From contig JANPJS010000073.1 in the NCBI GenBank assembly GCA_031425655.1, positions 1-64,000 of the forward strand: a stretch of 64,000 nucleotides of DNA, given 5' to 3'. This document shows positions 1,988 through 64,000 of the stretch, piece by piece (the stretch's first letter is position 1; each line of letters opens with the position of its first letter). This DNA is from Abditibacteriaceae bacterium (GTDB lineage Bacteria; Armatimonadota; Abditibacteriia; Abditibacteriales; Abditibacteriaceae). A model generated the notes under the pieces. That model ran no database searches and was not told where the DNA came from. It saw only the letters and a list, made by a program, of their open reading frames with translations. A program made the position numbers and the translations under genes.

Positions 1988-2566
1988 ACCCAAGTTGCTG
2001 GCTATGGAGTGCGGCGGCTCGGCGCCGCTTTCAGAAGCCGCTTTGTCGGCAGGAACCCTTTGTTTTGTTGAGGACACGCTGTAGCGTGTCCCTACGGGAG
2101 CCGCATTTCTTGTATGGACACGCTACAGCGTGTCCATAGTCATCAATCCAAGCAACTTTGGAGGCAAATTGGAGCCAGAGAGAGTGTCATTCCGAGTGGA
2201 GTTGGGCCGAAACGCAGTCCGGGAACCCGCTTGCGGGTGGGACAACGCAGTCGAGGAATCTTTTCTGCGGCCCCGTTGGTAAAAGATTCCTCGACTGCGA
2301 ACGACGGCGCGATTTTATCGCGTCGCGCCATCGTTCTTCGCTCGGAATGACACACTCTTTTTACGCGCACAACCCCCAATTTGGTCTTAGCTTGATGACT
2401 ATGGGACACGCTACAGCGTGTCCAACTGCGTTTCTCCTATTTTGAAGTTTGACAGCCGGTTATTCCCATTATTCCCCGTGCTTGATGTTTAACGCCGACA
2501 AGTCGGCTTGAAAAGCGCGAACCAGTTCGCGCACTCCAAAAATGCCGAGTCGGTGGCAACTTGGGT
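1988..2566. mobile_element. Non-autonomous TIR element (MITE-like) carrying nested REPs
   Basis: TIR acccaagttgc/gcaacttgggt; 9-bp direct repeat tataaatta at 1979-1987 and 2567-2575; inverted homolog at 14348-14657. Confidence 0.85.
2139..2399. mobile_element. Inner element with gtcatcaa/ttgatgac ends carrying a GTCATTCCGAG REP pair
   Basis: Absent from the 14348-14657 copy; flanked by duplicated tatg(g)gacacgctacagcgtgtcca. Confidence 0.75.
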
Positions 2567-7872: not shown

Positions 7873-9468
7873 ATGGCAGACCTGAACTCGCTGATTCTCA
7901 GCATTCTGATTTTCTTTCCATTAGCGGGCGCGGTTTTAGTGGCGCTGCTGCCGCGCGCCTTCGCGCGTAAAGCGGCTTTCGCCATCGCGCTGCTCAATCT
8001 GATTTTCTCGCTGCACCTGCTGCAAAACTGGGATTACAACGCGAACGGCTATCAATTCGAGCAAATGCTGCGTTGGCTGCCGCAATTCGGCATCAGCTAC
8101 CACTTGGGCATAGACGGCATCAGCATCTTGATGATTCTGCTGACGACTTTGCTCACGCCCATCGTGATTTTGGCCTCGAAAAACGTGGGGCAGCATCCGA
8201 AAGCGTTTTTCGCGTGCCTGCTGCTGCTCGAATCCACGCTGTGCGGCGTTTTCAGCGCCTTAGACGTGATTCTGTTTTACGTCTTTTTCGAAGCGGTGCT
8301 GGTGCCGATTTACATTCTCATCGCCACCTGGGGCGGGCCAAATCGCCAATACGCTGCGATTAAATATTTCCTCTACAACTTTCTGGGCAGCGTTTTGATG
8401 TGGATTGCGATGTTCTACATCTATTTCCATCAGACGAACGCCGCCGGACAGCCGCTTCCGATGTCGCAGCGCTCGTTCGATTTGCCGCAGTTCATGGCAT
8501 CGGCGCAGCAATTAGGCGCGGCGCCGGTTGCGATGTGGCTTTTCGCAGGCTTTGCCATCGCTTTCGCGGCGAAATCGGCGCTGTTCCCGCTGCATACAAT
8601 GGCGCCCGACGCTTACGCCGAAGCGCCGACCGCCGGTTCGGTTTTTCTCTCAGCGGTTTTGGCGAAAATGGGCACTTACGGCTTCCTTCGCTTCGTGCTG
8701 CCCTGCTTCCCCGAAGCCTCCACGACCGCCGCGCCGCTGATGATTACGCTTGGCTTAATTGCGGTCATTTACGGCGCACTTGTAGCCGTGATGCAGCGCG
8801 ATTTCAAGCGCACCATCGCGTATTCCTCGATTTCGCACGTCGGACTCATCATCGCCGGCATTTTCGCGGCGCAATTGGCCTCGGCTAACAGCGCGGACAG
8901 CGGTTTGACAAGCGCGGATTTGGCGACCGTCGCTCTCAGCGGCGCGACGTTGCAAATGTTCAATCACGGCATCAGCACGGCGGCACTGTTTTTGTTGCTC
9001 GGAATGCTCATCGAACGGCGCGACACCCGTTTAATCGGGCAATTCGGCGGGCTGGCCAAGCCGATGCCGCGCTTTGCCGTGCTGTTCTGGATCGCGCTCT
9101 TCGCGTCCATCGGATTGCCGGGACTGAACGGTTTTATCGGCGAATATCTGCTGTTGCAAGGCTTGGCTTCGGCGAAGTTCGTTTACGCGGCGTTTGGCGC
9201 AACAGGCGTTATTTTAGGCGCCGTTTATATGCTGAAGTTAAGTCGAAATCTGCTTTTCGGTGAAATCACCAACGAGGCGAACCGCAACTTGCGCGACGTG
9301 AATGGCATGGAAACCTTCGTAGTCGCGCTGCTTTTGCTGGTTTCGTTGTGGATTGGTCTGGCGCCGCAGCCGTTTTTGAATCTGATTCACAACGACGCCG
9401 CGAAAATCACGCAAATGGCGCAGGGCAAGCAGGCGCACAGCACACAGTTGGCGCGCATCGAAAAATAA
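7873..9468 (+). CDS. nuoM: NADH-quinone oxidoreductase subunit M
   Basis: EAPTAGSVFL, KMGTYGFLR, GLPGLNGFIGE. Confidence 0.95.
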   Translation: MADLNSLILSILIFFPLAGAVLVALLPRAFARKAAFAIALLNLIFSLHLLQNWDYNANGYQFEQMLRWLPQFGISYHLGIDGISILMILLTTLLTPIVILASKNVGQHPKAFFACLLLLESTLCGVFSALDVILFYVFFEAVLVPIYILIATWGGPNRQYAAIKYFLYNFLGSVLMWIAMFYIYFHQTNAAGQPLPMSQRSFDLPQFMASAQQLGAAPVAMWLFAGFAIAFAAKSALFPLHTMAPDAYAEAPTAGSVFLSAVLAKMGTYGFLRFVLPCFPEASTTAAPLMITLGLIAVIYGALVAVMQRDFKRTIAYSSISHVGLIIAGIFAAQLASANSADSGLTSADLATVALSGATLQMFNHGISTAALFLLLGMLIERRDTRLIGQFGGLAKPMPRFAVLFWIALFASIGLPGLNGFIGEYLLLQGLASAKFVYAAFGATGVILGAVYMLKLSRNLLFGEITNEANRNLRDVNGMETFVVALLLLVSLWIGLAPQPFLNLIHNDAAKITQMAQGKQAHSTQLARIEK

Positions 9469-14347: not shown

Positions 14348-14657
14348 ACCCAAGTTGCCGCCGACTCGGCCTTTTTGGAGTGCGCGAACTGGTCCGCGCT
14401 TTTCAAGCCGACTTGTCGGCGTTAAACATCCAGCACTGGGAATAACGGAAATAACTGGGTGTCAAGGAGAAACGCAGTTGGACACGCTGTAGCGTGTCCC
14501 TACAAGAAATGCGGCCCCCGTAGGGACACGCTACAGCGTGTCCTCAACAAAAGCTGCTCCAACTGCGTAACTCCCCAAAAACCAAAGGGTTGCTGCCGAC
14601 AAATCGGCTCCTCAAAGCGGCGCCGAGCCGCCGCACTCCAGAGACAGCAACTTGGGT
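14348..14657. mobile_element. Second, inverted copy of the acccaagttgc TIR element without the inner insertion
   Basis: Reverse-complement match to 1988-2566; taata on both sides (14343-14347, 14658-14662). Confidence 0.85.
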
Positions 14658-19469: not shown

Positions 19470-19527
19470 AATCGGCCTCGTATTGAGTATTCAGCGGCAA
19501 AACGGCGTTTTAGACAGGAGGGCAAAG

Positions 19528-19627
19528 GCTTTGATTCACCGTCCTGCCCAGAGGGCGCCCGACGCCAAGAACGCCAAGAGATTTAATTGCTCTTGGCGTT
19601 CTTGGCGTCTTGGCGGTGAATCAAAGC
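19528..19627. repeat. REP-like inverted pair, family A variant, with 19-nt micro-insert
   Basis: gctttgattcaccg...gacgccaagaacgccaagag and its reverse complement. Confidence 0.85.
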
Positions 19628-24145: not shown

Positions 24146-24909
24146 CGCGCCGCCTCTTGAAGCTGCTTGTAGCCGCTGGTGTCGAGGTCAATCGCCAGTT
24201 GCTTATCGCCGGTTTGCACGATGCGCCCGTCCATCAAAATGTGCACGAAATCCGGCACGATATAGTTGAGCAAACGCTGATAATGCGTCACGACGACGAA
24301 GGCGTTTCCTTCGTTTTTCAGCGTGTTCACGCCGTTGGCGACGATGCGCAGCGCGTCAATATCGAGGCCGGAATCGGTTTCGTCTAAAATGCCCAACGTC
24401 GGTTCCAAAACCGCCATCTGGAAGATTTCAAAGCGCTTTTTTTCGCCGCCGGAAAAGCCTTCGTTGATTGAGCGGCTGAGAAAGCTCTTGTCCAATTCGA
24501 CAATGCCCATTTTCTGGCGCACCAGCTTGAGAAACTGCGTGGCGTCCATTTCTTCTTCGCCGTGCGCTTTGCGAATGGAATTTAAGGCCGCGCGCAGAAA
24601 ATACGATGTGTTGACGCCGGGAATTTCAACGGGATATTGAAACGCGAGAAACACGCCTTTTTGGGCACGTTCGTCGGGCGCCATATCGAGCAGATTTTCG
24701 CCTTTATAAAGCACTTCGCCCTGCGTCACTTCGTATTCTTCGCGGCCCGCCAGCACTTGCGCCAGTGTGCTTTTGCCGGAACCGTTCAGGCCCATAATCG
24801 CGTGCGTTTCTCCAGCGTTAACCGTCAAATTGATGCCGCGCAGAATCTCTTTGTCTTCGACTCGCGCGTGCAAATCACGAATTTCTAAAATAACTTGTTT
24901 TTCTTGCAT
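24142..24909 (-). CDS. sufC: Fe-S cluster assembly ATPase SufC
   Basis: GLNGSGKST, FQYPVEIPG, GFSGGEKKR, DETDSGLD. Confidence 0.95.
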   Translation of the reverse strand: MQEKQVILEIRDLHARVEDKEILRGINLTVNAGETHAIMGLNGSGKSTLAQVLAGREEYEVTQGEVLYKGENLLDMAPDERAQKGVFLAFQYPVEIPGVNTSYFLRAALNSIRKAHGEEEMDATQFLKLVRQKMGIVELDKSFLSRSINEGFSGGEKKRFEIFQMAVLEPTLGILDETDSGLDIDALRIVANGVNTLKNEGNAFVVVTHYQRLLNYIVPDFVHILMDGRIVQTGDKQLAIDLDTSGYKQLQEAAR

Positions 24910-49344: not shown

Positions 49345-49506
49345 GAAAGTAGTCTGAAAAGTGGTGGTGACTCCCTTCCCCTTGATACGGCAAAGGGGAA
49401 GGGTTGGGGATGGGGTTCGGCTTTTTCCAGAACCCCATCCCTAACACCTGCCCTGAGGGCACCCGCCTTAAACGGCAAGGGGAGGGGACTTTTCAGACTG
49501 CTTCTA
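49345..49506. mobile_element. TIR shell (agtctgaaaagt/acttttcagact) carrying a CCCTTCCCC REP pair
   Basis: Ends related to 56677-56912; contains micro-module at 49446-49464. Confidence 0.7.
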
Positions 49507-53967: not shown

Positions 53968-54002
53968 TATTGCGGGCGCGCCAGCGGCGCGCCTTTTTTA
54001 TT

Positions 54003-55835
54003 ATGAGTTGGCAAGGCTGGTTTACTCTCGGATTGGTCGCTTTAGTGTTCGTGGCGATGGCCAAAGACATTGCCGCGCCCGATGTGCTGCTCATGGGCGC
54101 CACGATTATGTTGGCCATCGTGGGCATTATCACGCCCAAAGAAGCTTTTGCCGGGTTTTCCAACGAAGCGATGCTGTTGGTCGGCGCGCTTTTCGTGGTC
54201 GTGGCGGCGTTGCGTGAAACCGGCGCGATGGACGCCATCGGCGCGCGAATGCTGGGAAAAGCCAGGACTCCGCAGGGCGCGATGCTGCGCATGGCGGCTT
54301 GGATCAATACGGCGTTGGTATTTCTCAACAACACCAGCATCGTTGCCATGCTGCTGCCGGTGGTCACCGATTGGTGCCGCAAAAACCGCGTTTCGCCCTC
54401 GAAATTATTGATTCCGCTGTCGTTTCTGACGGTTTTGCGCGGCATGACGACTTTGCTCGGCACCAGCACCAATTTGGTCGTCAGCGGTTTTATGAAGGAC
54501 AGCGAGCAAAGGGCCACCGTAGACGGCGCGGCTCCGGCGATGCTGCACGCGCTGCGTCCGGTAGGACTGTTTGAAATCACGCCGTTGGGCATCGCGTGTT
54601 GCGTGGCGGGCACGATTTACATGGTCATCGCCGCGCCTCGCCTTTTGCCCGACCGCAAAGGCGTCATGGAGCAGATGGGCGAAAGCGTCCGCGAATATCT
54701 GCTGGACAGAGTCGTGACGCCGTCCTGCCGTCTTATCGGGCAAACCGTCACCGACGCCGGATTACGCCAATTGCCCGGTTTGTATCTCATCGAAATCGCA
54801 CGCCGCGACAAAGTGATTGCGCCGGTCAACCCAGACGAGCTAATCCGCGAAGGCGACCGCCTCACGTTCACCGGCATCGTGGATTCGATTGTAGATTTGG
54901 AGCGCATTCCCGGCTTGGCGGCCACTGACGAATCTTACGAAGCCGATCCGGCGCGCCGCCGTGGACGCCGCCTGACCGAAGCGGCGATTTCTCCGCGTTC
55001 GCCGTTAGTGGGGCAAACCATTCGCGCCGCCGATTTTCGCGCGCTTTACAACGCCGCTGTGGTGGCTGTGCATCGCGGCGGCACACGATTGCGCGGGCGC
55101 GTCGGCGACATTGTGCTGCGCGCCGGAGACACGCTGCTTTTGCAAACCGGGCCGCACTTCGCGCGGGCGCATCGCAACAATCTCGATTTCATTTTGGTGT
55201 CCACCCTCGAAGAATCGGAGCCGGTGCGTCACGACCGTTCTCTTTTGGCGCTGGGCCTGCTCGGCCTGCTGATAATTTTGTTGGTTTCCGGCGAGAATCT
55301 CTTAAATCCGACGATTGCGGCCTTTTTTATCGCCGGCTTGATGGTCGCTACGCGCTGCATTTCCACGTCAAGGGCGCGCGAAAGCGTGGACTGGCAAACC
55401 CTGATTTCCATTGCCGCTTCGTTTGGAATCGGCACCGCATTGGACAAATCGGGCGCCGCGAAAGTCATCGCTAACCTCGTCGTCAACGCGACCGGACAGT
55501 GGGGGCCAATCGCGGTTTTAGCGGCCATTTACTTCCTTACAGTTCTCTTCACCGAACTGATTACCAACAATGCAGCGGCGGCCTTGATGTTTCCCTTCGG
55601 CTTAGCCGTTGCGAGCCAAATGGACCTCAGCCCTCGCCCGTTTTCCATCGCCATCATGTTCGCGGCCTCGCTGGCCTTCGCCACGCCGATTGGCTACCAA
55701 ACCAACCTCATGGTTTACGCGCCCGGCGGCTACAAATTCTCCGATTTCACGCGCATCGGCCTGCCTTTAAACATCCTGCTCTGGATCATTTGCACGGCGC
55801 TGATTCCGATTTTGTGGCCGTTCGCGCTCAAGTAA
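54003..55835 (+). CDS. SLC13-family permease with TrkA-C domains
   Basis: GFSN, FLNNT, GTSTN, TELITNNAAA, TPIGYQTN. Confidence 0.9.
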   Translation: MSWQGWFTLGLVALVFVAMAKDIAAPDVLLMGATIMLAIVGIITPKEAFAGFSNEAMLLVGALFVVVAALRETGAMDAIGARMLGKARTPQGAMLRMAAWINTALVFLNNTSIVAMLLPVVTDWCRKNRVSPSKLLIPLSFLTVLRGMTTLLGTSTNLVVSGFMKDSEQRATVDGAAPAMLHALRPVGLFEITPLGIACCVAGTIYMVIAAPRLLPDRKGVMEQMGESVREYLLDRVVTPSCRLIGQTVTDAGLRQLPGLYLIEIARRDKVIAPVNPDELIREGDRLTFTGIVDSIVDLERIPGLAATDESYEADPARRRGRRLTEAAISPRSPLVGQTIRAADFRALYNAAVVAVHRGGTRLRGRVGDIVLRAGDTLLLQTGPHFARAHRNNLDFILVSTLEESEPVRHDRSLLALGLLGLLIILLVSGENLLNPTIAAFFIAGLMVATRCISTSRARESVDWQTLISIAASFGIGTALDKSGAAKVIANLVVNATGQWGPIAVLAAIYFLTVLFTELITNNAAAALMFPFGLAVASQMDLSPRPFSIAIMFAASLAFATPIGYQTNLMVYAPGGYKFSDFTRIGLPLNILLWIICTALIPILWPFALK

Positions 55836-56649
55836 TCGCGCGCCATTTGTGGCGCGGCGCCCAGTGCAGCACCGATTTGGCGCGCCGCGTATCAATTAAA
55901 GCTTTGAAAGGACGCGCTTCGTATTCCGACCCGCCACGCCACGCAACATCGGGATGAATCAAGGCGGCTAAAGCGTGACTACTCTGCGCAGCCGATGAAA
56001 TATCGTCGGCGCAAAGCAGCAAACGAACGTGGCCAGATTCGGGACAGGTCAGAGCGCACAGCGCGGCGTGGGCCGCATCGCGCACATCCAAAAACGCGCC
56101 ATATTCCCAGTAAGGCGTCCACTCGAAATTGGCGTCGGCGCGACGATTCTCGATGATGAATTCGTAAGTCGAAGCCGCGAAAACGCCGGGCGGACGCAGG
56201 CAAATTGTGAAAATGCCGGTTTTTTGCGTCCAAAGGCGGCACATTTCTTCGCCCAGATATTTGGAAATTGCATACGGCGAAGTGGGATAACACCGATGCT
56301 CGTCGTCGAGCGGCAGATAATCGGGCGCTCGCTCGCCTTTGAAAACGCCCAGTGCCGCCGCGCTGCTCCAAAACACCACGCGCCGCACCTGCGCGGTTTC
56401 AGCCGCAGCCAATACGTTCCAGGTGCCGGCCAAATTCACGGCCATCAAATCGGGCGAATCTTCGTCTAAAATCGCCGCGCCATGCACAACCGCATCGCAG
56501 CCCTGCATCGCCGCGAGCAGCTTCGACGCGTCACGAATATCATCGCCGTTTACCGCGTCGAAGCCGACGACTTCGTGTTCTTCGCTGCGTAAAAGCTGTT
56601 CCACTTCGCGCCCAATCAAGCCCGCGCTGCCGGTGACGAGAATTTTCAT
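55828..56649 (-). CDS. NAD-dependent epimerase/dehydratase
   Basis: TGSAGLIG, YAISK. Confidence 0.88.
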   Translation of the reverse strand: MKILVTGSAGLIGREVEQLLRSEEHEVVGFDAVNGDDIRDASKLLAAMQGCDAVVHGAAILDEDSPDLMAVNLAGTWNVLAAAETAQVRRVVFWSSAAALGVFKGERAPDYLPLDDEHRCYPTSPYAISKYLGEEMCRLWTQKTGIFTICLRPPGVFAASTYEFIIENRRADANFEWTPYWEYGAFLDVRDAAHAALCALTCPESGHVRLLLCADDISSAAQSSHALAALIHPDVAWRGGSEYEARPFKALIDTRRAKSVLHWAPRHKWRAIT

Positions 56650-56676
56650 TCAAAGCCTTCAAAATTGGACACAATA

Positions 56677-56912
56677 TAAGAAGCTGTCTGAGAATAGCCA
56701 TTGATCCTGAGTTGAGCCGCTTTTAATAGGACACGGAGCTTCGCTTCGCGGAAACGGCCACGGGTTTACACGGATTTTTGACATCTTTCTGTAAAACCGC
56801 GAAAATCCGCGCATGAAATCGGGGCACCCGCTTGCGGGTCGGAAAGCGAAGCTCCGCGTCCCCTTAAAAGTCTTTGGTATTAGCCTGTAACGAATTCTCA
56901 GACAGTTTCTTA
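56677..56912. mobile_element. TIR shell carrying a family B REP pair
   Basis: taagaagctgtctgagaat / attctcagacagtttctta (18/19 IR, TA at both ends); inner ggacacggagcttcgct...agcgaagctccgcgtcc. Confidence 0.75.
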
Positions 56913-56916
56913 GAAA

Positions 56917-57840
56917 TCAGGCGATGCCCAGATCAGATTCGAGTTGGCGCCATAATTCATCGGGCAGCGTTGTCGTGGCGGCGTGCACGTTTTGCTCGAC
57001 TTCAAGGGCACGTCCGGCGCCGACTAAAACGGTGCTTAGTCGCGGTTCGCGCAGCACATATTGAATGGCTAAATGCAAAATGCTCACGCCATGCGCCTCG
57101 GCCCACGCGCGGATTTCGCGGGCGCGTTGCAATTCGGGCGAAGCGCCATCGCTTTGGTGTTCGCGCAGCAATTCATCCCAATTCCGATCAGTGAGATAGC
57201 CCATCAAAACCGGCGAGCCAAGAATTAAAGCGGTATCGGTCGCGGCGGCTTCGCTAAACAAATCGCGCCGTGCCGATTGCCGCACCAGATTGAAATCGGC
57301 ATAAGTCAGAATGGTGTCGAACTCTGGCCTTTCGATGGCGCAGAGCAGAAAATCGTGGTTGCGCACGCCCAGTCCGATGCCGCCGATAACGCCTTGCGTT
57401 TTCAGGCTTTCGAGCGCGCCCAACGCTCCCTCGTGCGAAAAAGCCAGAGCGAAATCGGCTTCGGCAATGTCGTGAATCTGCACCAAATCGAGATAATCGG
57501 TGGCCAATACGCGCAGCGACTTTTCGACGCTGCGCAGCGTGGCTTCGTAAGAATAATCGCGCGGTGAGGTGCCGGTTCCGGTCTTGGTGGCCAGGAAATA
57601 GGAGGCGCGCGGCACGCCTCGCAACGCGCGCCCCAATCGCGCTTCGCTTTCGCCGTAGAGTGGCGAGGTATCGAAGTAATTGATGCCAAGTTGCAGAGCG
57701 CGCTGCACGGTTTCAATCGCGCCGGCTTCCGAGTTTTCGCGGCCATACAGGCAAGAAGCGAGTTCGGCGCAACCCAAGCCTAATTGGCTGACTTGCCGGT
57801 TCAAGCGCCCCAAACGGCGCTGTGGAAGGAGTGTCGTCAT
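56917..57840 (-). CDS. Aldo/keto reductase
   Basis: LGLG, FDTSPLYG, LATK, DYLDLVQIHD. Confidence 0.92.
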   Translation of the reverse strand: MTTLLPQRRLGRLNRQVSQLGLGCAELASCLYGRENSEAGAIETVQRALQLGINYFDTSPLYGESEARLGRALRGVPRASYFLATKTGTGTSPRDYSYEATLRSVEKSLRVLATDYLDLVQIHDIAEADFALAFSHEGALGALESLKTQGVIGGIGLGVRNHDFLLCAIERPEFDTILTYADFNLVRQSARRDLFSEAAATDTALILGSPVLMGYLTDRNWDELLREHQSDGASPELQRAREIRAWAEAHGVSILHLAIQYVLREPRLSTVLVGAGRALEVEQNVHAATTTLPDELWRQLESDLGIA

Positions 57841-57896
57841 TTGCTTTCCAAGAATCAGTTTAAAAAGTCCGATTAAGACTATTTAAAGAAGAGTTT

Positions 57897-57973
57897 GGTC
57901 ATCCTGAGCTTGCGAAGGATCTCGGCGTTTTGGCTTCCGTTACGCTGAGATCCTTCGCAAGCTCAGGATGACC
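57897..57973. repeat. GTCA-type REP doublet
   Basis: Perfect 27-bp IR ggtcatcctgagcttgcgaaggatctc / gagatccttcgcaagctcaggatgacc. Confidence 0.9.
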
Positions 57974-58006
57974 GCTGCTTAACTTTTGAGGTTTTGCCAC
58001 TACTTT

Positions 58007-59191
58007 TCAACCTGATTCCAAAAGCTGTTTCACATAATCTGCCTGCTCGGTTTCGCGGTTGGCATCGAGCCATTCTTGCAGCAAAGCGCGCGATTCATCG
58101 GCTAAAACGCCGCCGACGAAGCGTGGAAACAGGCTTTCGGGCGAACGCGGCGCCGAAACGCGATGCGTGGCGCCGTCGAAAGGCGCTTCGAGGCCGAAAA
58201 TGACCGTATCCACGCCCGAAAGCATCAGCGCGCCGCCGCACATCACGCACGGCTCTAAAGTCGCGGCGACGATTAAATCTTTGGCTTGCGGGTCAATTTT
58301 GCCGTCGCCGGCCTCGAAAGCCATCATTTCGGCGTGCGCGGTTTTGCGCTGCGTAGCGTTCATCTGATTGCTGGCCGTGGCAAGAATTTTTCCGCTGCCG
58401 TCGGCGATTGCGGCGCCGATGGGCACCTCGCCACGCGCCATGCCTTCGCGCGCCGCGTCCAACGCCGCGCGCATGATGCGTTCGAGTTCGGCTCGCGATA
58501 GCGAAAATTTAATCGGCGAAGCCAGTTGCAAAGCGTTGTCGAGATCGGCTAAAAGCGCGGCGCAATTTTCGTAAACCGCGCGGCAGCCGGCCTCGCGCAA
58601 ATCGGCCTCGGCGTGGCCTCCGGATAAGACGCCCAAACACGCCACGCCCGCCGCGCGGCAAGCACGGGCATCATGCGGCGTGTCGCCCACAAAAGCGCAT
58701 TGCGCGGGCGATAAACCCAGTTTTTCCAGTGCGACATTGAGAATATCCGGCGCCGGTTTGCTGTTTTCGGCATCGGCAGCGGTCGTCACGACTTCAAATT
58801 CGTCGCGCCACGCCACGCCACAGCTTTTCTCGATAGCTTCCAACATCTCCGGCTTAGCCGAAGTCGCTAAAGCCAAACGCAGGCCGCGTTTTTTCAGTTC
58901 GCCGAGCAGTTCGCAGGCACCGGGCACTATGTCAACGGGACTTTGCGTGATGGTCTGAATAAAGCGTTTAGCCTGGTCTTTACGCAAGGCTTCTCCGTCT
59001 TTTTCGTCGCCGCTGACGCCGATTAAATCGGGCACCAACTGGTCGCCGCCTTTGCCGACTTCGGGCGCGATGCGGTCGGCGGGAATGCCGTAGCCGCGCG
59101 CTTTAAATGCCTGCGCGAAACTCTCGGCGTGCATTGGGTTGGTGTCCACCAGAGTGCCGTCCATATCGAATAAAATCGCTTCTAAGGTCAT
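58007..59191 (-). CDS. HAD phosphatase fused to a Zn-dependent nucleoside deaminase domain
   Basis: FDMDGTL, KPAPD, VGDT; then EVPIGA, HAE, LEPCVMC. Confidence 0.88.
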   Translation of the reverse strand: MTLEAILFDMDGTLVDTNPMHAESFAQAFKARGYGIPADRIAPEVGKGGDQLVPDLIGVSGDEKDGEALRKDQAKRFIQTITQSPVDIVPGACELLGELKKRGLRLALATSAKPEMLEAIEKSCGVAWRDEFEVVTTAADAENSKPAPDILNVALEKLGLSPAQCAFVGDTPHDARACRAAGVACLGVLSGGHAEADLREAGCRAVYENCAALLADLDNALQLASPIKFSLSRAELERIMRAALDAAREGMARGEVPIGAAIADGSGKILATASNQMNATQRKTAHAEMMAFEAGDGKIDPQAKDLIVAATLEPCVMCGGALMLSGVDTVIFGLEAPFDGATHRVSAPRSPESLFPRFVGGVLADESRALLQEWLDANRETEQADYVKQLLESG

Positions 59192-59284
59192 GGTTCGCGC
59201 GAATCGGCAAGTCGCCCGCCGAATTATTCACTATCTGTGCGCCTCAAGCGCGGGCGGTTGGATAAAATAAAAGGACGAACCGCC

Positions 59285-59887
59285 ATGAAATCGAACCCGC
59301 GCTTCCTTCGCCGCCTGAAAACTTGCTGCTGCCTTGCGTTTCTGCTTGTTGGCGCGCTGCATCACTCGGCTTCTGCCCGCGAAAGTGCAACCTACGCGCT
59401 GAAAATTACTCACTCTGGGACAGGCCGGGAAAGGCTCAATACTCTTTGGCTTTACAACACCAAAACGCGAAAGACAGTCTGGAAGCGGAAGTTCAAGGCT
59501 AATGTCGGGGATGTAGAATGGTCGAAGGATAAACGCGCGGTTGCAATTAATGTGCATGGGGGAAAGATTTTGGTATGGCGCTTAGGCTATAAAACCCGTT
59601 TTTTCGATGCGCCACCAGATGAGGATTACATAATGGGTTTTCACTGGTCCCCCGACAAGCGGCGTCTCTTGATACGCTGTGGAGGCAGCGGCGATGATAT
59701 GACGCCAAACTGTAATCTTTATTGCCTGAATATTCAAAAACGGCGACTTCATTTTATTCATGGGGCAAGCGAAGAATCCTGGGCGAGCAACCGCAAGGTT
59801 CTTTATAAGGATAAGACTTCTGGTTATGACTCTAAAACCGGCCAATGGATTTATCCCAAAAAGTTTCGCGTTTGGCGTAGCCCCTAA
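59285..59887 (+). CDS. Hypothetical basic exported protein (WS-repeat, propeller-like)
   Basis: Signal peptide; WSKD, WSPD, WASN motifs; appears AT-richer than neighbours. Confidence 0.65.
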   Translation: MKSNPRFLRRLKTCCCLAFLLVGALHHSASARESATYALKITHSGTGRERLNTLWLYNTKTRKTVWKRKFKANVGDVEWSKDKRAVAINVHGGKILVWRLGYKTRFFDAPPDEDYIMGFHWSPDKRRLLIRCGGSGDDMTPNCNLYCLNIQKRRLHFIHGASEESWASNRKVLYKDKTSGYDSKTGQWIYPKKFRVWRSP

Positions 59888-59957
59888 ACTGTGCCTCAGA
59901 GCAGCAACCGAAACTTCGTCATTCGTCAATTGAAAATCGTCAATCCAAAGGGATAAT

Positions 59958-61043
59958 ATGAAAAAATGGAAGGTTGCAGGAATTAGCTTCGACCATATGC
60001 ACATGGGCGATTTGCTGCGGCAGGTCGGCGAGCATCCGAACGCCGAAATCGTCGGCATTTGCGATGACAATTCGGCCAACGCCGAAGGCTTCGCGCGCGT
60101 GAAGCAAAACTTCTCCATGCCCGATGATCGCGTTTTTAGCGATTATCAACAGTGTCTCGAAACCACGCAGCCGGACATCGTGATTTTGTGCCCGGCGACG
60201 GCACGGCACGGCGAATTCGTCGAGAAAGTCGCGCCGTTCGGCGTGAATGTGCTTGTCGAAAAGCCATTCGCCGCCACGTTACAAGAAGCTGATGCCATGA
60301 TCGCCGCGATGCAAAAAAGCGGCAAAACGATGGTGATTAACTGGCCTCTGGCGTGGTATCCGCCGCACGTTACGAGCAAGCGATTGATTGACGAAGGCGT
60401 TATCGGCGAAGTGATCGAAGTGCATTATTACGACGGCAATCGCGGCCCGATGCGCCACGTCGCCGACAAAATCGAAATCGGCGAAGACGAAGCGACACGC
60501 CGCAAAAACCAGAGTTGGTTTTACCAAAAGGACAAAGGCGGCGGCTCGCTGCTTGATTATCTGGGTTACGGCACTACGCTCGGAACGTGGTTTCACAGCG
60601 GCGCGGCGCCGCTCGAAGTGACCTGCATGGTAGATGAGCCGAGTGGGCTGGAAGTGGACGAACACTCGATCACAATCGCGCGCTATGCGAACGGTTTATC
60701 GAAATTCGAGACGCGCTGGGGCACTTTCACCGACCCGTGGACGCTTCAGCCGCAACCCAAATGCGGCTTTGTCATCGTCGGCACTGCGGGCACGATTAGC
60801 TCTTACGACTACGCATCAACGATTCTCGTGCAAACGCGCGCGAAGCCCGAAGGCGAAACGCTTCCCGTTGATACGCTCAAAACCGCGCTTTCAAATCCGA
60901 TTCACCATTTGATTGACGTGTTGGAAAACGGCACGCCGATTCACGGCCCGCTCGACCCAAAAATCTGCCGCATCGGCCAACAAATCGTGGATAGCGCCGT
61001 GCTTTCGGCGCGCGAAAAGCGCACGGTGCCATTGGTAGGCTGA
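59958..61043 (+). CDS. Gfo/Idh/MocA oxidoreductase
   Basis: VEKP, GGGSLLDY. Confidence 0.88.
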   Translation: MKKWKVAGISFDHMHMGDLLRQVGEHPNAEIVGICDDNSANAEGFARVKQNFSMPDDRVFSDYQQCLETTQPDIVILCPATARHGEFVEKVAPFGVNVLVEKPFAATLQEADAMIAAMQKSGKTMVINWPLAWYPPHVTSKRLIDEGVIGEVIEVHYYDGNRGPMRHVADKIEIGEDEATRRKNQSWFYQKDKGGGSLLDYLGYGTTLGTWFHSGAAPLEVTCMVDEPSGLEVDEHSITIARYANGLSKFETRWGTFTDPWTLQPQPKCGFVIVGTAGTISSYDYASTILVQTRAKPEGETLPVDTLKTALSNPIHHLIDVLENGTPIHGPLDPKICRIGQQIVDSAVLSAREKRTVPLVG

Positions 61044-61052
61044 CTTTAAATA

Positions 61053-61163
61053 GAACACGGCGGCTTCGCCGACACGGAAACAGCAAGGATTTTCACAGAT
61101 CAATCCAAATTAAAAATCCGTGTAAATCTGTGTCGTTTCCGTGTCGGCGAAGCCGCCGTGTTC
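61053..61163. repeat. REP-like inverted pair, family B
   Basis: gaacacggcggcttcgccgacacggaaac / gtttccgtgtcggcgaagccgccgtgttc. Confidence 0.9.
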
Positions 61164-61175
61164 CAATTGAAAATC

Positions 61176-62321
61176 ATGGCGAAAAAAGAAACCGATTACA
61201 GTCTCAGCAACGCTTCGCCGTCGCAGAAAATCGCGGCGCCGAAGCTCAATTATCTGCCGCCGATGCCGAAAGACTACCGGCCAAACATCGCTTTAATCGG
61301 CTGCGGCGGCATCACGAAAACGCATCTCACAGCCTATGCAAAAGCCGGTTTCAACGTCGTGGCGCTGTGCGATGTCAACCGCGAAAACGCCGAGCGGCGG
61401 CAAACAGAATTTTTCCCGGACGCCCAGATTTACACCGATCACAGCGAAGTTTTGAAGCGCGACGACATCGAAGTGCTGGACATCGCCACGCATCCGCCGG
61501 AGCGTGTGCCGTTGCTCAAAGACGCGCTCAACGCGCGCAAGCACGTTTTATCGCAAAAGCCGTTCGTGCTTGACCTCGATACCGGCGAAAAGTTGGCCGA
61601 TTTAGCCGATAAAAAAGGCGTGAAATTGGCGGTTAATCAAAATGGCCGCTGGTCGCCGCACTTTTCCTATATTCGCAGCGCCGTGCAGACCGGCACCGTC
61701 GGCGAATTGCTGTCGGCGCACGTTCGCGTTCACTGGGATCACACCTGGATTGCCGGCACGCCCTTCGAGCGGATTCACGACATTGTGTTTTATGATTTTG
61801 CGATTCACTGGTTCGATTTTGTGGCGACACTGCTTGGAAATCGCAAAGCCACGCGCGTTCACGCTTCCAAAACTCGCGCTTCTGGGCAAACCATGATGCC
61901 GCCGATGCTGGCGCAATCGCTGATTGAATTTGAAGGCGGGCAAGCCTCGCTGGTCTTCGACGCGCACTTGCCTTACGGCGCGACGGACACTACTTACGTC
62001 GGCGGCACGAAAGGCAGTATTCTTTCGACCGGGCCGAATTTGGGCGAGCAAAAACTGACGCTTTATCTCGAAAACGGCACGGCGCAGCCGAAATTGCAAG
62101 GCTCGTGGTTTCCCGGCGGCTTTATGGGCACGATGGGCGAGCTTTTGTGCGCCATCGAAGAAAACCGCGCGCCACAAAACAACGCGCGCGATAACCTGAA
62201 AAGCTTGGAATTGTGCTTCGCCGCGATTGCCGCCTCAACCGATGGCCAGCCGAAAACACCCGGCGCCGTTCGCAAACTGCCGAAAGGCGCCGTGCCAGCG
62301 CAAACGAAAGGCAGTCGGTGA
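61176..62321 (+). CDS. Gfo/Idh/MocA oxidoreductase
   Basis: IGCGGI, SQKP, DFAIHWFD. Confidence 0.88.
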   Translation: MAKKETDYSLSNASPSQKIAAPKLNYLPPMPKDYRPNIALIGCGGITKTHLTAYAKAGFNVVALCDVNRENAERRQTEFFPDAQIYTDHSEVLKRDDIEVLDIATHPPERVPLLKDALNARKHVLSQKPFVLDLDTGEKLADLADKKGVKLAVNQNGRWSPHFSYIRSAVQTGTVGELLSAHVRVHWDHTWIAGTPFERIHDIVFYDFAIHWFDFVATLLGNRKATRVHASKTRASGQTMMPPMLAQSLIEFEGGQASLVFDAHLPYGATDTTYVGGTKGSILSTGPNLGEQKLTLYLENGTAQPKLQGSWFPGGFMGTMGELLCAIEENRAPQNNARDNLKSLELCFAAIAASTDGQPKTPGAVRKLPKGAVPAQTKGSR

Positions 62322-62322
62322 A

Positions 62323-62479
62323 TTGGAACACGGGCTTCGCATCCTGCCCAGAGGGCGCCCGAAACGACACGGATAGACACGGTTTTTCTTTGCGCTGTTT
62401 CGGGAAAAGTGCGCTTCTTTGGCCCGTTTTTGAAACCGTGTTAATCCGTGTCGTTTCCGTGTGCGAAGCCCGTGTTCCA
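62323..62479. repeat. REP-like inverted pair, family B, with 19-nt micro-insert
   Basis: tggaacacgggcttcgca[19 nt]gaaacgacacgg / ccgtgtcgtttccgtgtgcgaagcccgtgttcca. Confidence 0.88.
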
Positions 62480-62487
62480 TTAAACGC

Positions 62488-63276
62488 ATGAATTTCACTA
62501 ACAAAACGCTTTTTATCGTCGGTTCGACGGGCATTGGTGGCGAAACGGCCAAGCTGGCGGCGCAGGCGGGCGCACGGGTTTTCATTTCGTCGCGCACTGA
62601 GGAAAATTGCCGCGCTCTGGCCGAAGAGATTAATTCATCGGGCGGCACGGCGGCCTTTTTTGCCGCCGACCAAACGCAGGCGATGCAAGTGGAAAGCGCA
62701 GTTGCGGCGTGTGTCGAAGCCTTTGGCGGCATGGACGCGGCTTTCAATGTAGCGGGCATTAGCGGGCGCAAATTCGGCGACGGGCCGCTGCACGAATGCA
62801 GCGAAGAAGGCTGGGATGTTACGCTCGATACCAATGCCAAAGGCTTGTTTTTGTTTTGCCGCGCGCAGCTTAATCAAATGCTGAAACAGCCGATTGGCGC
62901 CAATGGTTTGCGCGGCAATATTCTCAACATGGCGAGTATGCTGGCGCTTTCGCCGCAACGCGATTTCTTTGCTACGCACGCTTATGCGGCCAGCAAAGGC
63001 GCGATTATTTCGATGAGCCGCTCGATGGCGAGTTATTACGCGCCGCATAAAATCCGCGTCAACGTCATCGCGCCGAGCCTGATTCGCACGCCGATGAGCC
63101 TTCGCGCGCAGGAAAACCCCGCGATTTTGGAATTGATGAAAACCAAACAGCCGCTGGTCGAAGATTTAATTTCCGCCGAAGATGTGGCTCGCGCCGCGCT
63201 GTTTTTACTGAGCGACGAAGCGCGTGCCATCACCGGCGACGTTCTAAGCGTAGACGCCGGCTGGAGCGTGAGCTGA
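62488..63276 (+). CDS. SDR family oxidoreductase
   Basis: GSTGIG, NVAG, YAASK, RVNVIAP. Confidence 0.9.
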   Translation: MNFTNKTLFIVGSTGIGGETAKLAAQAGARVFISSRTEENCRALAEEINSSGGTAAFFAADQTQAMQVESAVAACVEAFGGMDAAFNVAGISGRKFGDGPLHECSEEGWDVTLDTNAKGLFLFCRAQLNQMLKQPIGANGLRGNILNMASMLALSPQRDFFATHAYAASKGAIISMSRSMASYYAPHKIRVNVIAPSLIRTPMSLRAQENPAILELMKTKQPLVEDLISAEDVARAALFLLSDEARAITGDVLSVDAGWSVS

Positions 63277-63282
63277 AATTTA

Positions 63283-63380
63283 TTCACCGCGGAGACGCTG
63301 AGAAAAACAGATTTTGAAAATGGCTTTTTTACGAAATTCTTTTAACATTTTTCTCGGCGTCTCCGCGTCTCGGCGGTGAA
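63283..63380. repeat. REP-like inverted pair, family A
   Basis: ttcaccgcggagacgc...gcgtctcggcggtgaa. Confidence 0.85.
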
Positions 63381-63394
63381 ATCGAAAGGGCAAC

Positions 63395-64000
63395 ATGAAA
63401 ATTGGATTTATTGGCGTGGGCGGCATCGCCGGCAATTATTTGGGCAGCTTGAAGAAGTTGGAGCAGCCCGTCGCGGCCTTTTGCGACTTAAACGCCGAAC
63501 GCGCGCAAAAAGCCGCGAGCGAAAATGGTGGCACGGCTTACACTGATCACAAAGAAATGCTGGCGCGGGAAAAGCCGGACATCGTGTTTATTTCGATTCC
63601 TCCGGGCGCGCACGACGGACAAGTCGCGGATGCGGCGCAATCGGGCGCGGCGGTCTTTGTCGCCAAGCCGGTCGGCCTCAATTTCGATGCGGTTTTGCGC
63701 ACGCGCGATGCCATTTCGCAGGCCGGCGTCATTAATCAAGGGGGCTACATGGCGCGCTATTCCGACATTACGCAGCGCGCGAAAGAACTGGCCGGCGACC
63801 AAAAATTGAGTCTCGGTTTTGGCCGATTTATGTGTCGAATGGGCAGCGGGCATCCGTGGTGGGGCAAAGGCGCCGTCAGCGGCGGGCAAATGCTGGAACA
63901 AAGCACGCACGTTTTCGATTGGCTGCGCTATTTTCTCGGCGACGTAGCCGAAGTTTCGGCCTACGGACACCAAGGCGCCGCCGATGATGTCGCTGATTTC
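63395..64000 (+). CDS. Gfo/Idh/MocA oxidoreductase, truncated by window end
   Basis: MKIGFIGVGGIA...VAKP...SGGQMLEQSTHVFD translated by hand. Confidence 0.85.
   Translation, partial: MKIGFIGVGGIAGNYLGSLKKLEQPVAAFCDLNAERAQKAASENGGTAYTDHKEMLAREKPDIVFISIPPGAHDGQVADAAQSGAAVFVAKPVGLNFDAVLRTRDAISQAGVINQGGYMARYSDITQRAKELAGDQKLSLGFGRFMCRMGSGHPWWGKGAVSGGQMLEQSTHVFDWLRYFLGDVAEVSAYGHQGAADDVADF

What the first reader, a model, noticed from the sequence alone, without database searches (positions are those of the whole stretch)
19542..19560. A 19-nt hairpin micro-module that overwrites arms of unrelated REP families
Seen: tcctgcccagagggcgccc occurs identically at 19542-19560 and 62342-62360, and at 16/19 identity at 49446-49464, each followed by g. 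Each sits in one arm of an inverted repeat from a different family. The intact partner arm shows it replaced ccaa (19542), cacg (62342) or about 5-6 nt (49446), with no target duplication. It folds tgccc-aga-gggcg followed by cccg. Inference: an enzyme-driven micro-insertion system targeting palindromic or single-stranded repeat DNA (a parasite of REPs, an excision footprint or a templated repair tag). I do not recognise a described element of this size and behaviour.
Basis: partly seen in the sequence, partly recalled or inferred. Interest (0 to 1): 0.8.

Follow-up and report, generated by a model that had tools for sequence, protein, structure and literature searches.

The report
Twenty-base hairpin insertion module
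A 20-base DNA hairpin has been pasted hundreds of times into other repeats (and once into a tRNA gene) of this soil/sediment bacterium, each time replacing exactly five bases, and the same module occurs letter for letter in an unrelated phylum, so it is a very small mobile element whose enzyme is still unknown.

Summary
The unit is a 19-nt core CCTGCCCARAGGGCRCCCG preceded by one variable non-G base. The genome holds 299 copies at up to 3 mismatches, with razor-sharp borders, 75% outside a crude ORF map, mostly inside other repeats. In 30 of 36 independent host families the unfilled copies carry exactly 5 nt (C+NNNN, C in 30 of 30) where filled copies carry the 20 nt; there is no target duplication. 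A syntenic tRNA-Arg(TCG) gene is intact in a congener (CAGCA) and carries the module in this genome, which proves insertion. The same 19-mer, with the same 5-to-20 rule, sits in a narrow Chloroflexota clade (10-31 copies per genome). No RAYT, reverse transcriptase, phage or larger element goes with the module; the enzyme remains unknown. Closest known: Elhai's small dispersed repeats (SDRs) of Nostocaceae. This scan has noted the same kind of element before in other phyla. Verdict: new variant of a known, unexplained kind.

The parts
19542..19561 (+). Module copy 1: variable base T (19542) + 19-nt core CCTGCCCAGAGGGCGCCCG (19543-19561)
19526..19626 (.). Host palindrome of copy 1 (arms caccg-CCAAG-acgccaagaacgccaagag); gene-less relative of the cassette around the GxxExxY gene on contig C45; folds at -43.5 kcal/mol with the module as a side branch
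19609..19613 (-). Intact 5-nt target (CCAAG on the - strand) in the partner arm of the same palindrome
62342..62361 (+). Module copy 2: T (62342) + core (62343-62361)
62325..62478 (.). Host palindrome of copy 2 (arms ggaacacgggcttcgca-CACGG-aaacgacacgg); gene-less relative of the cassette around the GxxExxY gene on contig C215
62457..62461 (-). Intact 5-nt target (CACGG on the - strand) in the partner arm
49446..49465 (+). Module copy 3 (diverged): A (49446) + core CCTGCCCTGAGGGCACCCG (49447-49465), replacing CCTCC at the start of the 5' arm of the hairpin ccctcccctt-aaacggc-aaggggaggg
56820..56842 (-). Copy of the sister module M2 (CCGACCCGCAAGCGGGTGCCCCG, 23 nt, same CC...CCCG frame), in the same slot of the 'ggagcttcgct' host family that elsewhere holds the module or CGCGG
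2219..2241 (-). M2-like variant (CCCACCCGCAAGCGGGTTCCCGG, 3 mismatches)

Best explanation
The feature is one copy of a non-autonomous, about 20-nt insertion module ('M'): one variable base plus the 19-nt hairpin core CCTGCCCARAGGGCRCCCG. SHOWN: M is a discrete unit with sharp borders; it is inserted DNA (intact orthologous tRNA gene in a congener); each insertion removes exactly 5 target bases that begin with C and puts 20 in (net +15), with no target duplication; targets lie in hairpin-prone DNA (arms and loops of palindromic cassettes and REPs, heptamer arrays, a tRNA gene), mostly on the 5' side of the hairpin when read in M's orientation; a sister module M2 uses the same slot; the same module and the same rule occur in a narrow Chloroflexota clade. 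INFERRED: a trans-acting, structure-guided enzyme makes two cuts 5 nt apart on one strand next to a C and joins in a copy of M; the left junction base (T>A=C>>G) is either part of the element or a non-templated addition; most of the 299 copies then arose by hitch-hiking when host repeats multiplied (at least 88 distinct contexts); the module or its machinery moved between phyla horizontally. The enzyme is not identified; the weak best candidate is the cassette-borne GxxExxY PD-(D/E)XK nuclease family.
For: Sharp borders and copy number: 299 copies at <=3 mismatches, information drops to background at both ends; 211 exact vs 0 for the reversed pattern. Rule: 721 paired flank sites, 314 filled, 407 not, of which 342 have 4 nt after the junction base; 36 host families with both states, 30 with a 5-mer, first base C in 30 of 30; two abutting targets gcggcaa[CCACG][CGGCA]aagtc give two abutting modules 20 nt apart. 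Insertion polarity: tRNA-Arg(TCG) of congener G001 reads ggacagga-CAGCA-cgcttcgaa, G000 reads ggacagga-A+core-cgcttcgaa, same tRNA cluster (alignment A1). Replication in another phylum: G043 has 13 hairpins with ctc-CATTG-cgatgg and 5 with ctc-A+core-cgatgg. No TSD. 5' arm bias 32 vs 8 strict, 131 vs 30 loose. M2 in the same slot. Distribution: all 4 genomes of the genus, 5 of 8 in two sister genera at 1-14 copies, 0 of 11 in another genus, 0 of 17 outside the family; 12 of 61 genomes around G043 (two of the 12, G049 and G050, are unpublished genomes that add counts only). Cassette link; PF13366 in 10 of 12 M-bearing vs 5 of 49 M-free Chloroflexota genomes.
Against: No enzyme is tied to M: none of six Y1/HUH genes is flanked by M and 0 of 3 M-bearing Thermomicrobiales genomes has a Y1 gene; no RVT_1 reverse transcriptase in G000, 97% complete. 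PF13366 is also in 10 of 11 M-free genomes of genus g2 and missing from G041, which has 16 M copies; its Chloroflexota association is confounded by kinship. No strand bias with GC skew (111 vs 101) or with transcription (57 vs 49), which a single-strand mechanism might predict. No present-day mobility seen: congeners are only 75-80% identical in flanking genes and the laid contigs show no presence/absence variant. 6 of 36 families depart from the 5-mer rule. Copies are not independent because host repeats multiply.
Confidence: 0.7

Rival explanations
1. Repair patch: hairpins and slipped heptamer arrays are cut by a host structure-specific nuclease (SbcCD-type cutting at the 5' side of loops is recalled knowledge) and the break is mended with a short patch copied from another M-bearing locus; no dedicated element-encoded function.
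For: Targets are hairpin-prone and mostly at the 5' arm/loop side; one junction carries a variable base like a non-templated addition; no dedicated enzyme found.
Against: The patch is always the same 19 nt with exact borders in at least 88 contexts and in two phyla; exact 5-nt loss beginning with C in 30 of 30 families is hard to get from resection and end joining; no microhomology at the junctions.
Confidence: 0.12
2. Functional site: M is a binding site or RNA/DNA signal for a conserved protein, kept identical by selection, and moved among repeats by recombination of modules as in E. coli BIMEs.
For: Core is far better conserved than distant host flanks (minor-allele fraction 0.007 vs 0.35-0.46 in one family of 23); identical in two phyla; contains the palindrome GGGCGCCC in the G variant (sequence).
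Against: No orientation bias to transcription (57 vs 49) and no preference for promoters (26 divergent of 169 classified); disrupts a tRNA gene; weak hairpin; no Rfam family; selection does not explain the 5-nt replacement rule.
Confidence: 0.1
3. REP/REPIN of a RAYT (Y1 HUH transposase) acting on single-stranded DNA.
For: G000 has six PF01797 genes, some flanked by REPs that host M; no TSD.
Against: No GTAG/CGTC tag; none of the six genes is flanked by M; 0 of 3 M-bearing Thermomicrobiales genomes and only a 24-bit hit in G044; no strand bias.
Confidence: 0.04
4. Artefact (adapter, assembly error) or excision footprint of a larger element.
For: None beyond the small size.
Against: Present in mid-contig in many independent assemblies of two phyla; multi-copy depth and border at 62343 in a second assembly of the run; no larger element in the slots; tRNA orthologue shows the 5-mer is ancestral.
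Confidence: 0.01

Closest known systems
Small dispersed repeats SDR4-SDR6 of Nostoc punctiforme and other Nostocaceae (Elhai et al. 2008, Genome Res 18:1484; full text not held; details partly recalled; passages citing it read in PMC4390886, PMC5861425, PMC3116915, PMC2884548)
   Same: [quoted passage not shown]
   Different: Other phyla (PMC5861425 passage says no SDR was found outside Nostocaceae); 19-20 nt rather than 21-27 (recalled range); here a fixed 5-nt target loss starting with C is shown, identity across two phyla, a hit in a tRNA gene, and hosts that are arms of nuclease-gene cassettes. Sequence likeness to SDR1-8 could not be tested.
REP/REPIN elements with RAYT transposases (PMC3116915, abstract and passages; PMC3733652, abstract and passages)
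   Same: Short intergenic palindromes in hundreds of copies, no TSD, thought to be moved in trans.
   Different: No GTAG/CGTC tag, no flanked RAYT gene, M sits inside REPs rather than being one, and M-bearing Thermomicrobiales genomes lack Y1 genes.
23S rRNA intervening sequences and their four-helix-bundle (PF05635/TIGR02436) gene cassettes (family names; biology recalled)
   Same: Hairpin-shaped DNA that replaces the tip of an existing helix; the same protein family lies in the palindromic cassettes of this genome.
   Different: IVS are 100 nt or more and sit in rRNA; M is 20 nt, gene-less and dispersed.
Rickettsia palindromic elements (recalled, not read here)
   Same: Palindromic repeats that insert into genes, including RNA genes, without obvious transposase.
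   Different: 100-150 nt, one genus, no fixed target replacement reported to my knowledge.

Membership tests
Small dispersed repeats (SDR, Elhai 2008) | Dispersed repeat of about 20-27 nt with sharp borders | tested here: met
   19-nt core + 1 base; information falls to background at both ends; 299 copies. Size range recalled.
Small dispersed repeats (SDR, Elhai 2008) | Precise insertion into other repeats, heptamer arrays included, without target duplication | tested here: met
   SDR5 'precise insertion' in PMC4390886 passage; nesting in heptamers recalled.
Small dispersed repeats (SDR, Elhai 2008) | Sequence relationship to SDR1-8 / occurrence in Nostocaceae | not testable with these tools
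   The paper and its sequences are not held. Organisms here are Abditibacteriaceae and Chloroflexota by record titles.
REP/REPIN-RAYT | GTAG or CGTC tag at the foot of the hairpin | tested here: not met
   Core starts CC and ends CCCG; tag definition from PMC3733652 abstract.
REP/REPIN-RAYT | A Y1 transposase gene flanked by the repeat and co-occurring with it | tested here: not met
   0 of 6 Y1 genes flanked by M; 0 of 3 M-bearing Thermomicrobiales genomes with PF01797.
MITE | Terminal inverted repeats plus target-site duplication, 50-500 nt | tested here: not met
   20 nt; TSD lengths equal shuffled control.
IS200/IS605-type single-strand insertion | Insertion 3' of a retained 4-5-nt target; strand bias with replication | tested here: not met
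   Target is removed, not retained; 111 vs 101 with GC skew (weak test).
Retroelement-templated insertion | A reverse transcriptase in the genome | tested here: not met
   PF00078: 0 matches in G000, completeness 97.15%; multi-copy genes can be missing from such assemblies.

The most novel reading that the evidence does not exclude
M, its sister modules and the palindromic GxxExxY / four-helix-bundle / DUF559 cassettes are one system found across phyla: a cassette-borne PD-(D/E)XK (GxxExxY) nuclease recognises hairpin DNA, cuts one strand beside a C and 5 nt further on, and swaps in a hairpin unit, which may be 20 nt (M) or a whole gene cassette. That would be a new transposition chemistry ('cut five out, paste a hairpin in') and would also explain the cyanobacterial SDRs and 23S rRNA intervening sequences.
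Probability: 0.12. Interest if true: 0.9.

Novelty: new variant of a known kind. Interest (0 to 1): 0.68.

Why it matters
Mobile DNA is thought to need at least terminal repeats for a transposase; a 20-nt unit that inserts precisely, keeps its sequence across phyla and can knock out a tRNA gene lies below that limit. The way SDR-type modules move has been open since 2008. This locus gives testable handles: an exact target rule (C+NNNN replaced), a polarity towards the 5' side of hairpins, a proven orthologous empty site, two distant clades for phyletic profiling, and a short list of candidate nucleases that live in the very repeats the module invades. It also shows that many 'REP families' of this genome are arms of small nuclease-gene cassettes, each paralogue with its own repeat family.

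Tried and rejected
Larger autonomous element in the same slots: 59 flank pairs 25-10,000 nt apart are neighbouring repeats, one 30-nt variant only. RAYT/HUH. Reverse transcriptase: none in G000. Phage vector: 5 single hits in the viral collection, about chance. Rfam: only two sub-threshold chance hits on the host palindrome. Strand bias with GC skew or transcription: none. Orthologous comparison at the three window sites: congeners too diverged; at 62342 one congener has no host repeat and another a related element without M. Read-level polymorphism: runs are kept as contigs that break at the repeats; no presence/absence variant seen; runs X2-X4 hold only small shares. Cross-phylum transfer scan: 4382 G000 ORFs against 173 kb around Chloroflexota copies and against 2.31 Mb (about 44%) of G044: 674 hits of 100 aa or more, median 35.5% identity, maximum 68%, no high-identity outlier; of the 63 hits at 49.5% or more, 60 were annotated (3 left out for lack of fetch calls): 56 ordinary genes, 4 small cassette genes. 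PF05635 (10 of 12 vs 19 of 49) and PF04480 (9 of 12 vs 34 of 49) do not track M. Elhai 2008 could not be read; searches for 'Abditibacteriota'+'repeat' (47 papers, 10 listed, none relevant by title/abstract), heptameric-repeat terms, 'GxxExxY' (3 papers, none on function) and IVS/four-helix-bundle (1 paper) found no description of this module; so 'not in print' holds only for these searches of the held library.

Full report
OBSERVATION. The 19-mer TCCTGCCCAGAGGGCGCCC stands at window 19542-19560 and 62342-62360 and, with 3 mismatches, at 49446-49464, all on the + strand, each followed by G. Chance expectation in the window is 0.02 matches and none of 100 shuffles reaches three. The window is contig C73 of a 5.98-Mb, 327-contig assembly of 56.7% G+C.

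THE UNIT. Aligning the copies shows that the conserved block is shifted by one base: CCTGCCCARAGGGCRCCCG (19 nt), with G236/A58 at the loop position and G171/A128 at the position closing the stem. It is preceded by a variable base (T147, A71, C71, G10 of the 299 copies that lie 30 nt or more from a contig end). Information content falls to background immediately outside. It is the most abundant non-tandem 14-mer family of the genome. The hairpin TGCCC-ARA-GGGCR is weak by itself (-3.4 kcal/mol as DNA, z -0.74) and forms a side branch in the strongly folding host palindromes (-43.5 kcal/mol, z -11.5 at 19526-19626). No Rfam family fits.

IT IS REAL. The exact pattern occurs 211 times in this genome, 109, 23 and 44 times in the three other genomes of the genus, 1-14 times in 5 of 8 genomes of two sister genera, and not in the 11 genomes of another genus of the family or in 17 genomes of other families searched; the reversed pattern gives 0 everywhere. 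A public run holds 96% of the sampled words of window 54001-64000 and is probably the source sample, so it is not independent. Its Logan contigs break at the repeats, repeat bins have 5-10 times the depth of neighbours, and six contigs with unlike upstream sequence begin to match exactly at 62343, the first base of the core. An adapter or assembly artefact is excluded.

THE REPLACEMENT RULE. I took the 30-nt flanks of all 299 copies and paired their matches elsewhere in the genome: 721 paired sites, 314 with the module between the flanks and 407 without. Of the 407, 342 have exactly 4 nt after the junction base, 20 have 3 and 16 have 5. Grouping by flanks gives 88 contexts, 38 with both states; 36 have a short 'empty' form, 30 of these a 5-mer, and its first base is C in 30 of 30 (CTTGC, CAACC, CCTCC, CTTAA, CGCGG, CACGG, CAATT, CCAAG, CGGCA and others). 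So 5 nt (C+NNNN) are replaced by 20 nt (H+19), net +15. Six of 36 families depart from this (3, 4, 6 or 7 nt). Where two such 5-mers abut (gcggcaa-CCACG-CGGCA-aagtc) some copies carry two modules exactly 20 nt apart. There is no target duplication beyond a shuffled control.

PROOF OF INSERTION. One copy in a unique context lies in a tRNA gene on contig C61. ARAGORN finds only a distorted tRNA-Arg(TCG) there. In congener G001 the same cluster (His, Leu-gag, Arg-tcg, Leu-taa, Trp) holds an intact 72-nt tRNA-Arg(TCG). The two genes align over their whole length except that G001 has CAGCA where G000 has A plus the 19-nt core (alignment A1). The replaced bases are the last base of the D stem, base 26 and the first three of the anticodon stem. 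This fixes the polarity (the 5-mer is ancestral) and repeats the rule at an orthologous site. It is the only tcg tRNA that ARAGORN finds in G000; acg, ccg, cct and tct tRNAs remain.

WHERE IT LANDS. By a crude ORF map covering 88.7% of the genome, 224 of 299 copies are outside ORFs; most of the other 75 lie near ORF ends or in doubtful ORFs. 198 of 299 have both flanks repeated elsewhere and 287 at least one, against 153 and 377 of 600 random intergenic points. Hosts include heptamer arrays (catccct), REP-like hairpins and long palindromes. In folds of the empty forms the 5-mer usually lies just before, or in the 5' arm of, a hairpin, often at the arm/loop junction. Read in its own orientation the module is in the 5' arm in 32 cases against 8 by a strict test and 131 against 30 by a loose one; copies are not independent. 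There is no bias with transcription (57 same sense, 49 antisense between co-directional genes) or with GC skew (111 vs 101).

RELATIVES OF THE MODULE. A 23-nt module M2, CCGACCCGCAAGCGGGTGCCCCG, has the same CC...CCCG frame, about 25 copies in at least four contexts, hybrids such as CCTGCCCGCAAGCGGGCGCCCGG, and occupies the same slot (in place of CGCGG) as M in one host family; one copy is in the window at 56820-56842.

A SECOND PHYLUM. Besides records titled Abditibacteriaceae, it returned several loci each from records titled Thermomicrobia, Thermomicrobiales, Chloroflexia and Herpetosiphonaceae, plus singletons in other phyla that are about what chance allows. Four of these Chloroflexota genomes hold 16, 10, 31 and 14 exact copies, reversed control 0. 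Among 61 genomes around G043, 12 carry it (1-31 copies) and 49 do not (two carriers, G049 and G050, are unpublished and give counts only). The contexts match: heptamer arrays (ctcattg, ccccgat), the loop of gggcgca...tgcgccc-ctac REPs, G/C hairpins; the preceding base is T23, A7, C2, G1 in 33 distinct copies (35 rows, two places listed twice). In G043, 13 hairpins read ctc-CATTG-cgatggagagggg and 5 read ctc-A+core-cgatggagagggg: the same rule, at the 5' arm/loop junction of an 11-bp hairpin. In a ctcattg array the phase of the repeats likewise implies loss of CATTG (by eye). Two narrow, distant clades thus share one module and one mechanism, which points to horizontal spread.

THE HOSTS ARE NUCLEASE CASSETTES. 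Looking for genes unusually alike between the phyla, I compared 4382 G000 ORFs with 2.31 Mb (about 44%) of G044: 674 hits of 100 aa or more, median identity 35.5%, maximum 68%, no outlier. Of 63 hits at 49.5% or more, 60 were annotated: 56 ordinary genes and four small ones, two PF13366/TIGR04256 'GxxExxY' PD-(D/E)XK nucleases (63%, 53%), one PF05635/TIGR02436 four-helix-bundle '23S rRNA intervening-sequence' protein (59%) and one DUF559 (51%). G000 has eight clear GxxExxY paralogues (37-56% alike; a ninth weak hit), two four-helix-bundle and two DUF559 genes. Each of the eight GxxExxY genes, and both four-helix-bundle genes, sits in the centre of a long inverted repeat. Those repeats are the families that M interrupts: the C45 gene has the arms of window 19526-19626, the C215 gene those of window 62325-62478, and the C143 and C298 cassettes carry M in their arms; the four-helix-bundle genes lie between inverted heptamer arrays. 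G044 shows the same architecture. 68 of 299 M copies lie in repeats matching arms of gene-bearing cassettes, and most arms have about 20 to 120 matches genome-wide, mostly gene-less.

THE ENZYME IS NOT FOUND. None of six Y1/HUH genes is flanked by M, and 0 of 3 M-bearing Thermomicrobiales genomes has one. G000 has no RVT_1 gene. No larger element occupies the slots. Viral contigs give five single hits. PF13366 occurs in 10 of 12 M-bearing but 5 of 49 M-free Chloroflexota genomes, yet also in 22 of 24 Abditibacteriaceae including 10 of 11 M-free ones, and not in G041 with 16 copies; kin are not independent. PF05635 (10/12 vs 19/49) and PF04480 (9/12 vs 34/49) do not track M. The GxxExxY nucleases are therefore a lead, not a finding.

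MECHANISM. Shown: a cut-and-replace outcome with a fixed 5-nt loss beginning with C, one precise junction (core-G then flank) and one junction with a variable base, preference for the 5' side of hairpins, no duplication. Inferred: a structure-guided enzyme acting in trans makes two cuts 5 nt apart and joins in a copy of M; a fixed small target loss is what two staggered cuts of the 'wrong' polarity give (general knowledge of transposition and target-primed copying, recalled). The T>A=C>>G base could be a non-templated addition or part of the element. Most copies then spread by hitch-hiking with host repeats.

KNOWN THINGS. The closest is Elhai's small dispersed repeats. I could not read that paper. 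Passages elsewhere call SDR5 a 'repeat module' with 'precise insertion' in HIP1 (PMC4390886) and say no SDR was found outside Nostocaceae (PMC5861425). REP/REPIN-RAYT, MITE, IS200/IS605 and retroelement membership each fail a defining feature (see membership table). Earlier notes of this scan report tiny hairpin modules nested in heptamer repeats in other phyla, some nearly identical across phyla, with SDRs as closest known and no enzyme; they agree with this reading but are unchecked. What is added here: the exact target rule, an orthologous empty site, replication in a second phylum, and the link of host repeats to nuclease cassettes.

VERDICT. Observation confirmed; interpretation partly supported; a new variant of a known but unexplained kind of very small mobile DNA.

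Noticed in passing
whole genome G000; e.g. contig C74 around 24318-24701, C253 around 9075-9380: Abundant heptamer tandem arrays (AGTTTTG, AGGGATG, AGTGACG, AATTCAA; up to 246 occurrences of a 14-mer); inverted heptamer arrays bracket the two four-helix-bundle (PF05635) genes.
   Followed up: partly
G000 contigs C45, C54, C126, C143, C215, C228, C260, C298: Each GxxExxY (PF13366) paralogue has its own inverted-repeat family with tens of gene-less copies, a one-gene/one-repeat-family relation like RAYT and REPINs; I found no description of it in the held library.
   Followed up: partly
whole genome; consensus TGTCATTCTGAGCTTGCGAAGAATCT: A 26-nt module with 115 copies of its core 14-mer and sharp borders of its own; its central CTTGC is the commonest target of M (23 filled, 46 empty).
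   Followed up: partly
window about 14440-14490 (- strand); also contigs C179, C276, C42: A GTAG-tagged REP pair (GTAGCGTGTCCCTAC...GTAGGGACACGCTAC) nested in the loop of the hairpin ggacacgc-tgta-gcgtgtcc, the same loop that elsewhere holds a variant of M.
   Followed up: no
L192 (G000:C61:420-900) vs L193 (G001): Between tRNA-His and tRNA-Arg the congener has a tRNA-Leu(gag) gene; G000 has AATTCAA-type repeats there instead, so this tRNA cluster has been remodelled more than once.
   Followed up: no
window 62290-62500 vs L007, L008: The host palindrome itself is variable between species: one congener has no repeat in the orthologous spacer, another a related palindrome plus an extra gene of about 260 codons.
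   Followed up: no
G000 contig C12 4782-5123: A RAYT-like Y1 gene flanked by the gaagtccgcc...gcggact / cccgaataaattcgggg REPs, which are themselves frequent hosts of M.
   Followed up: partly
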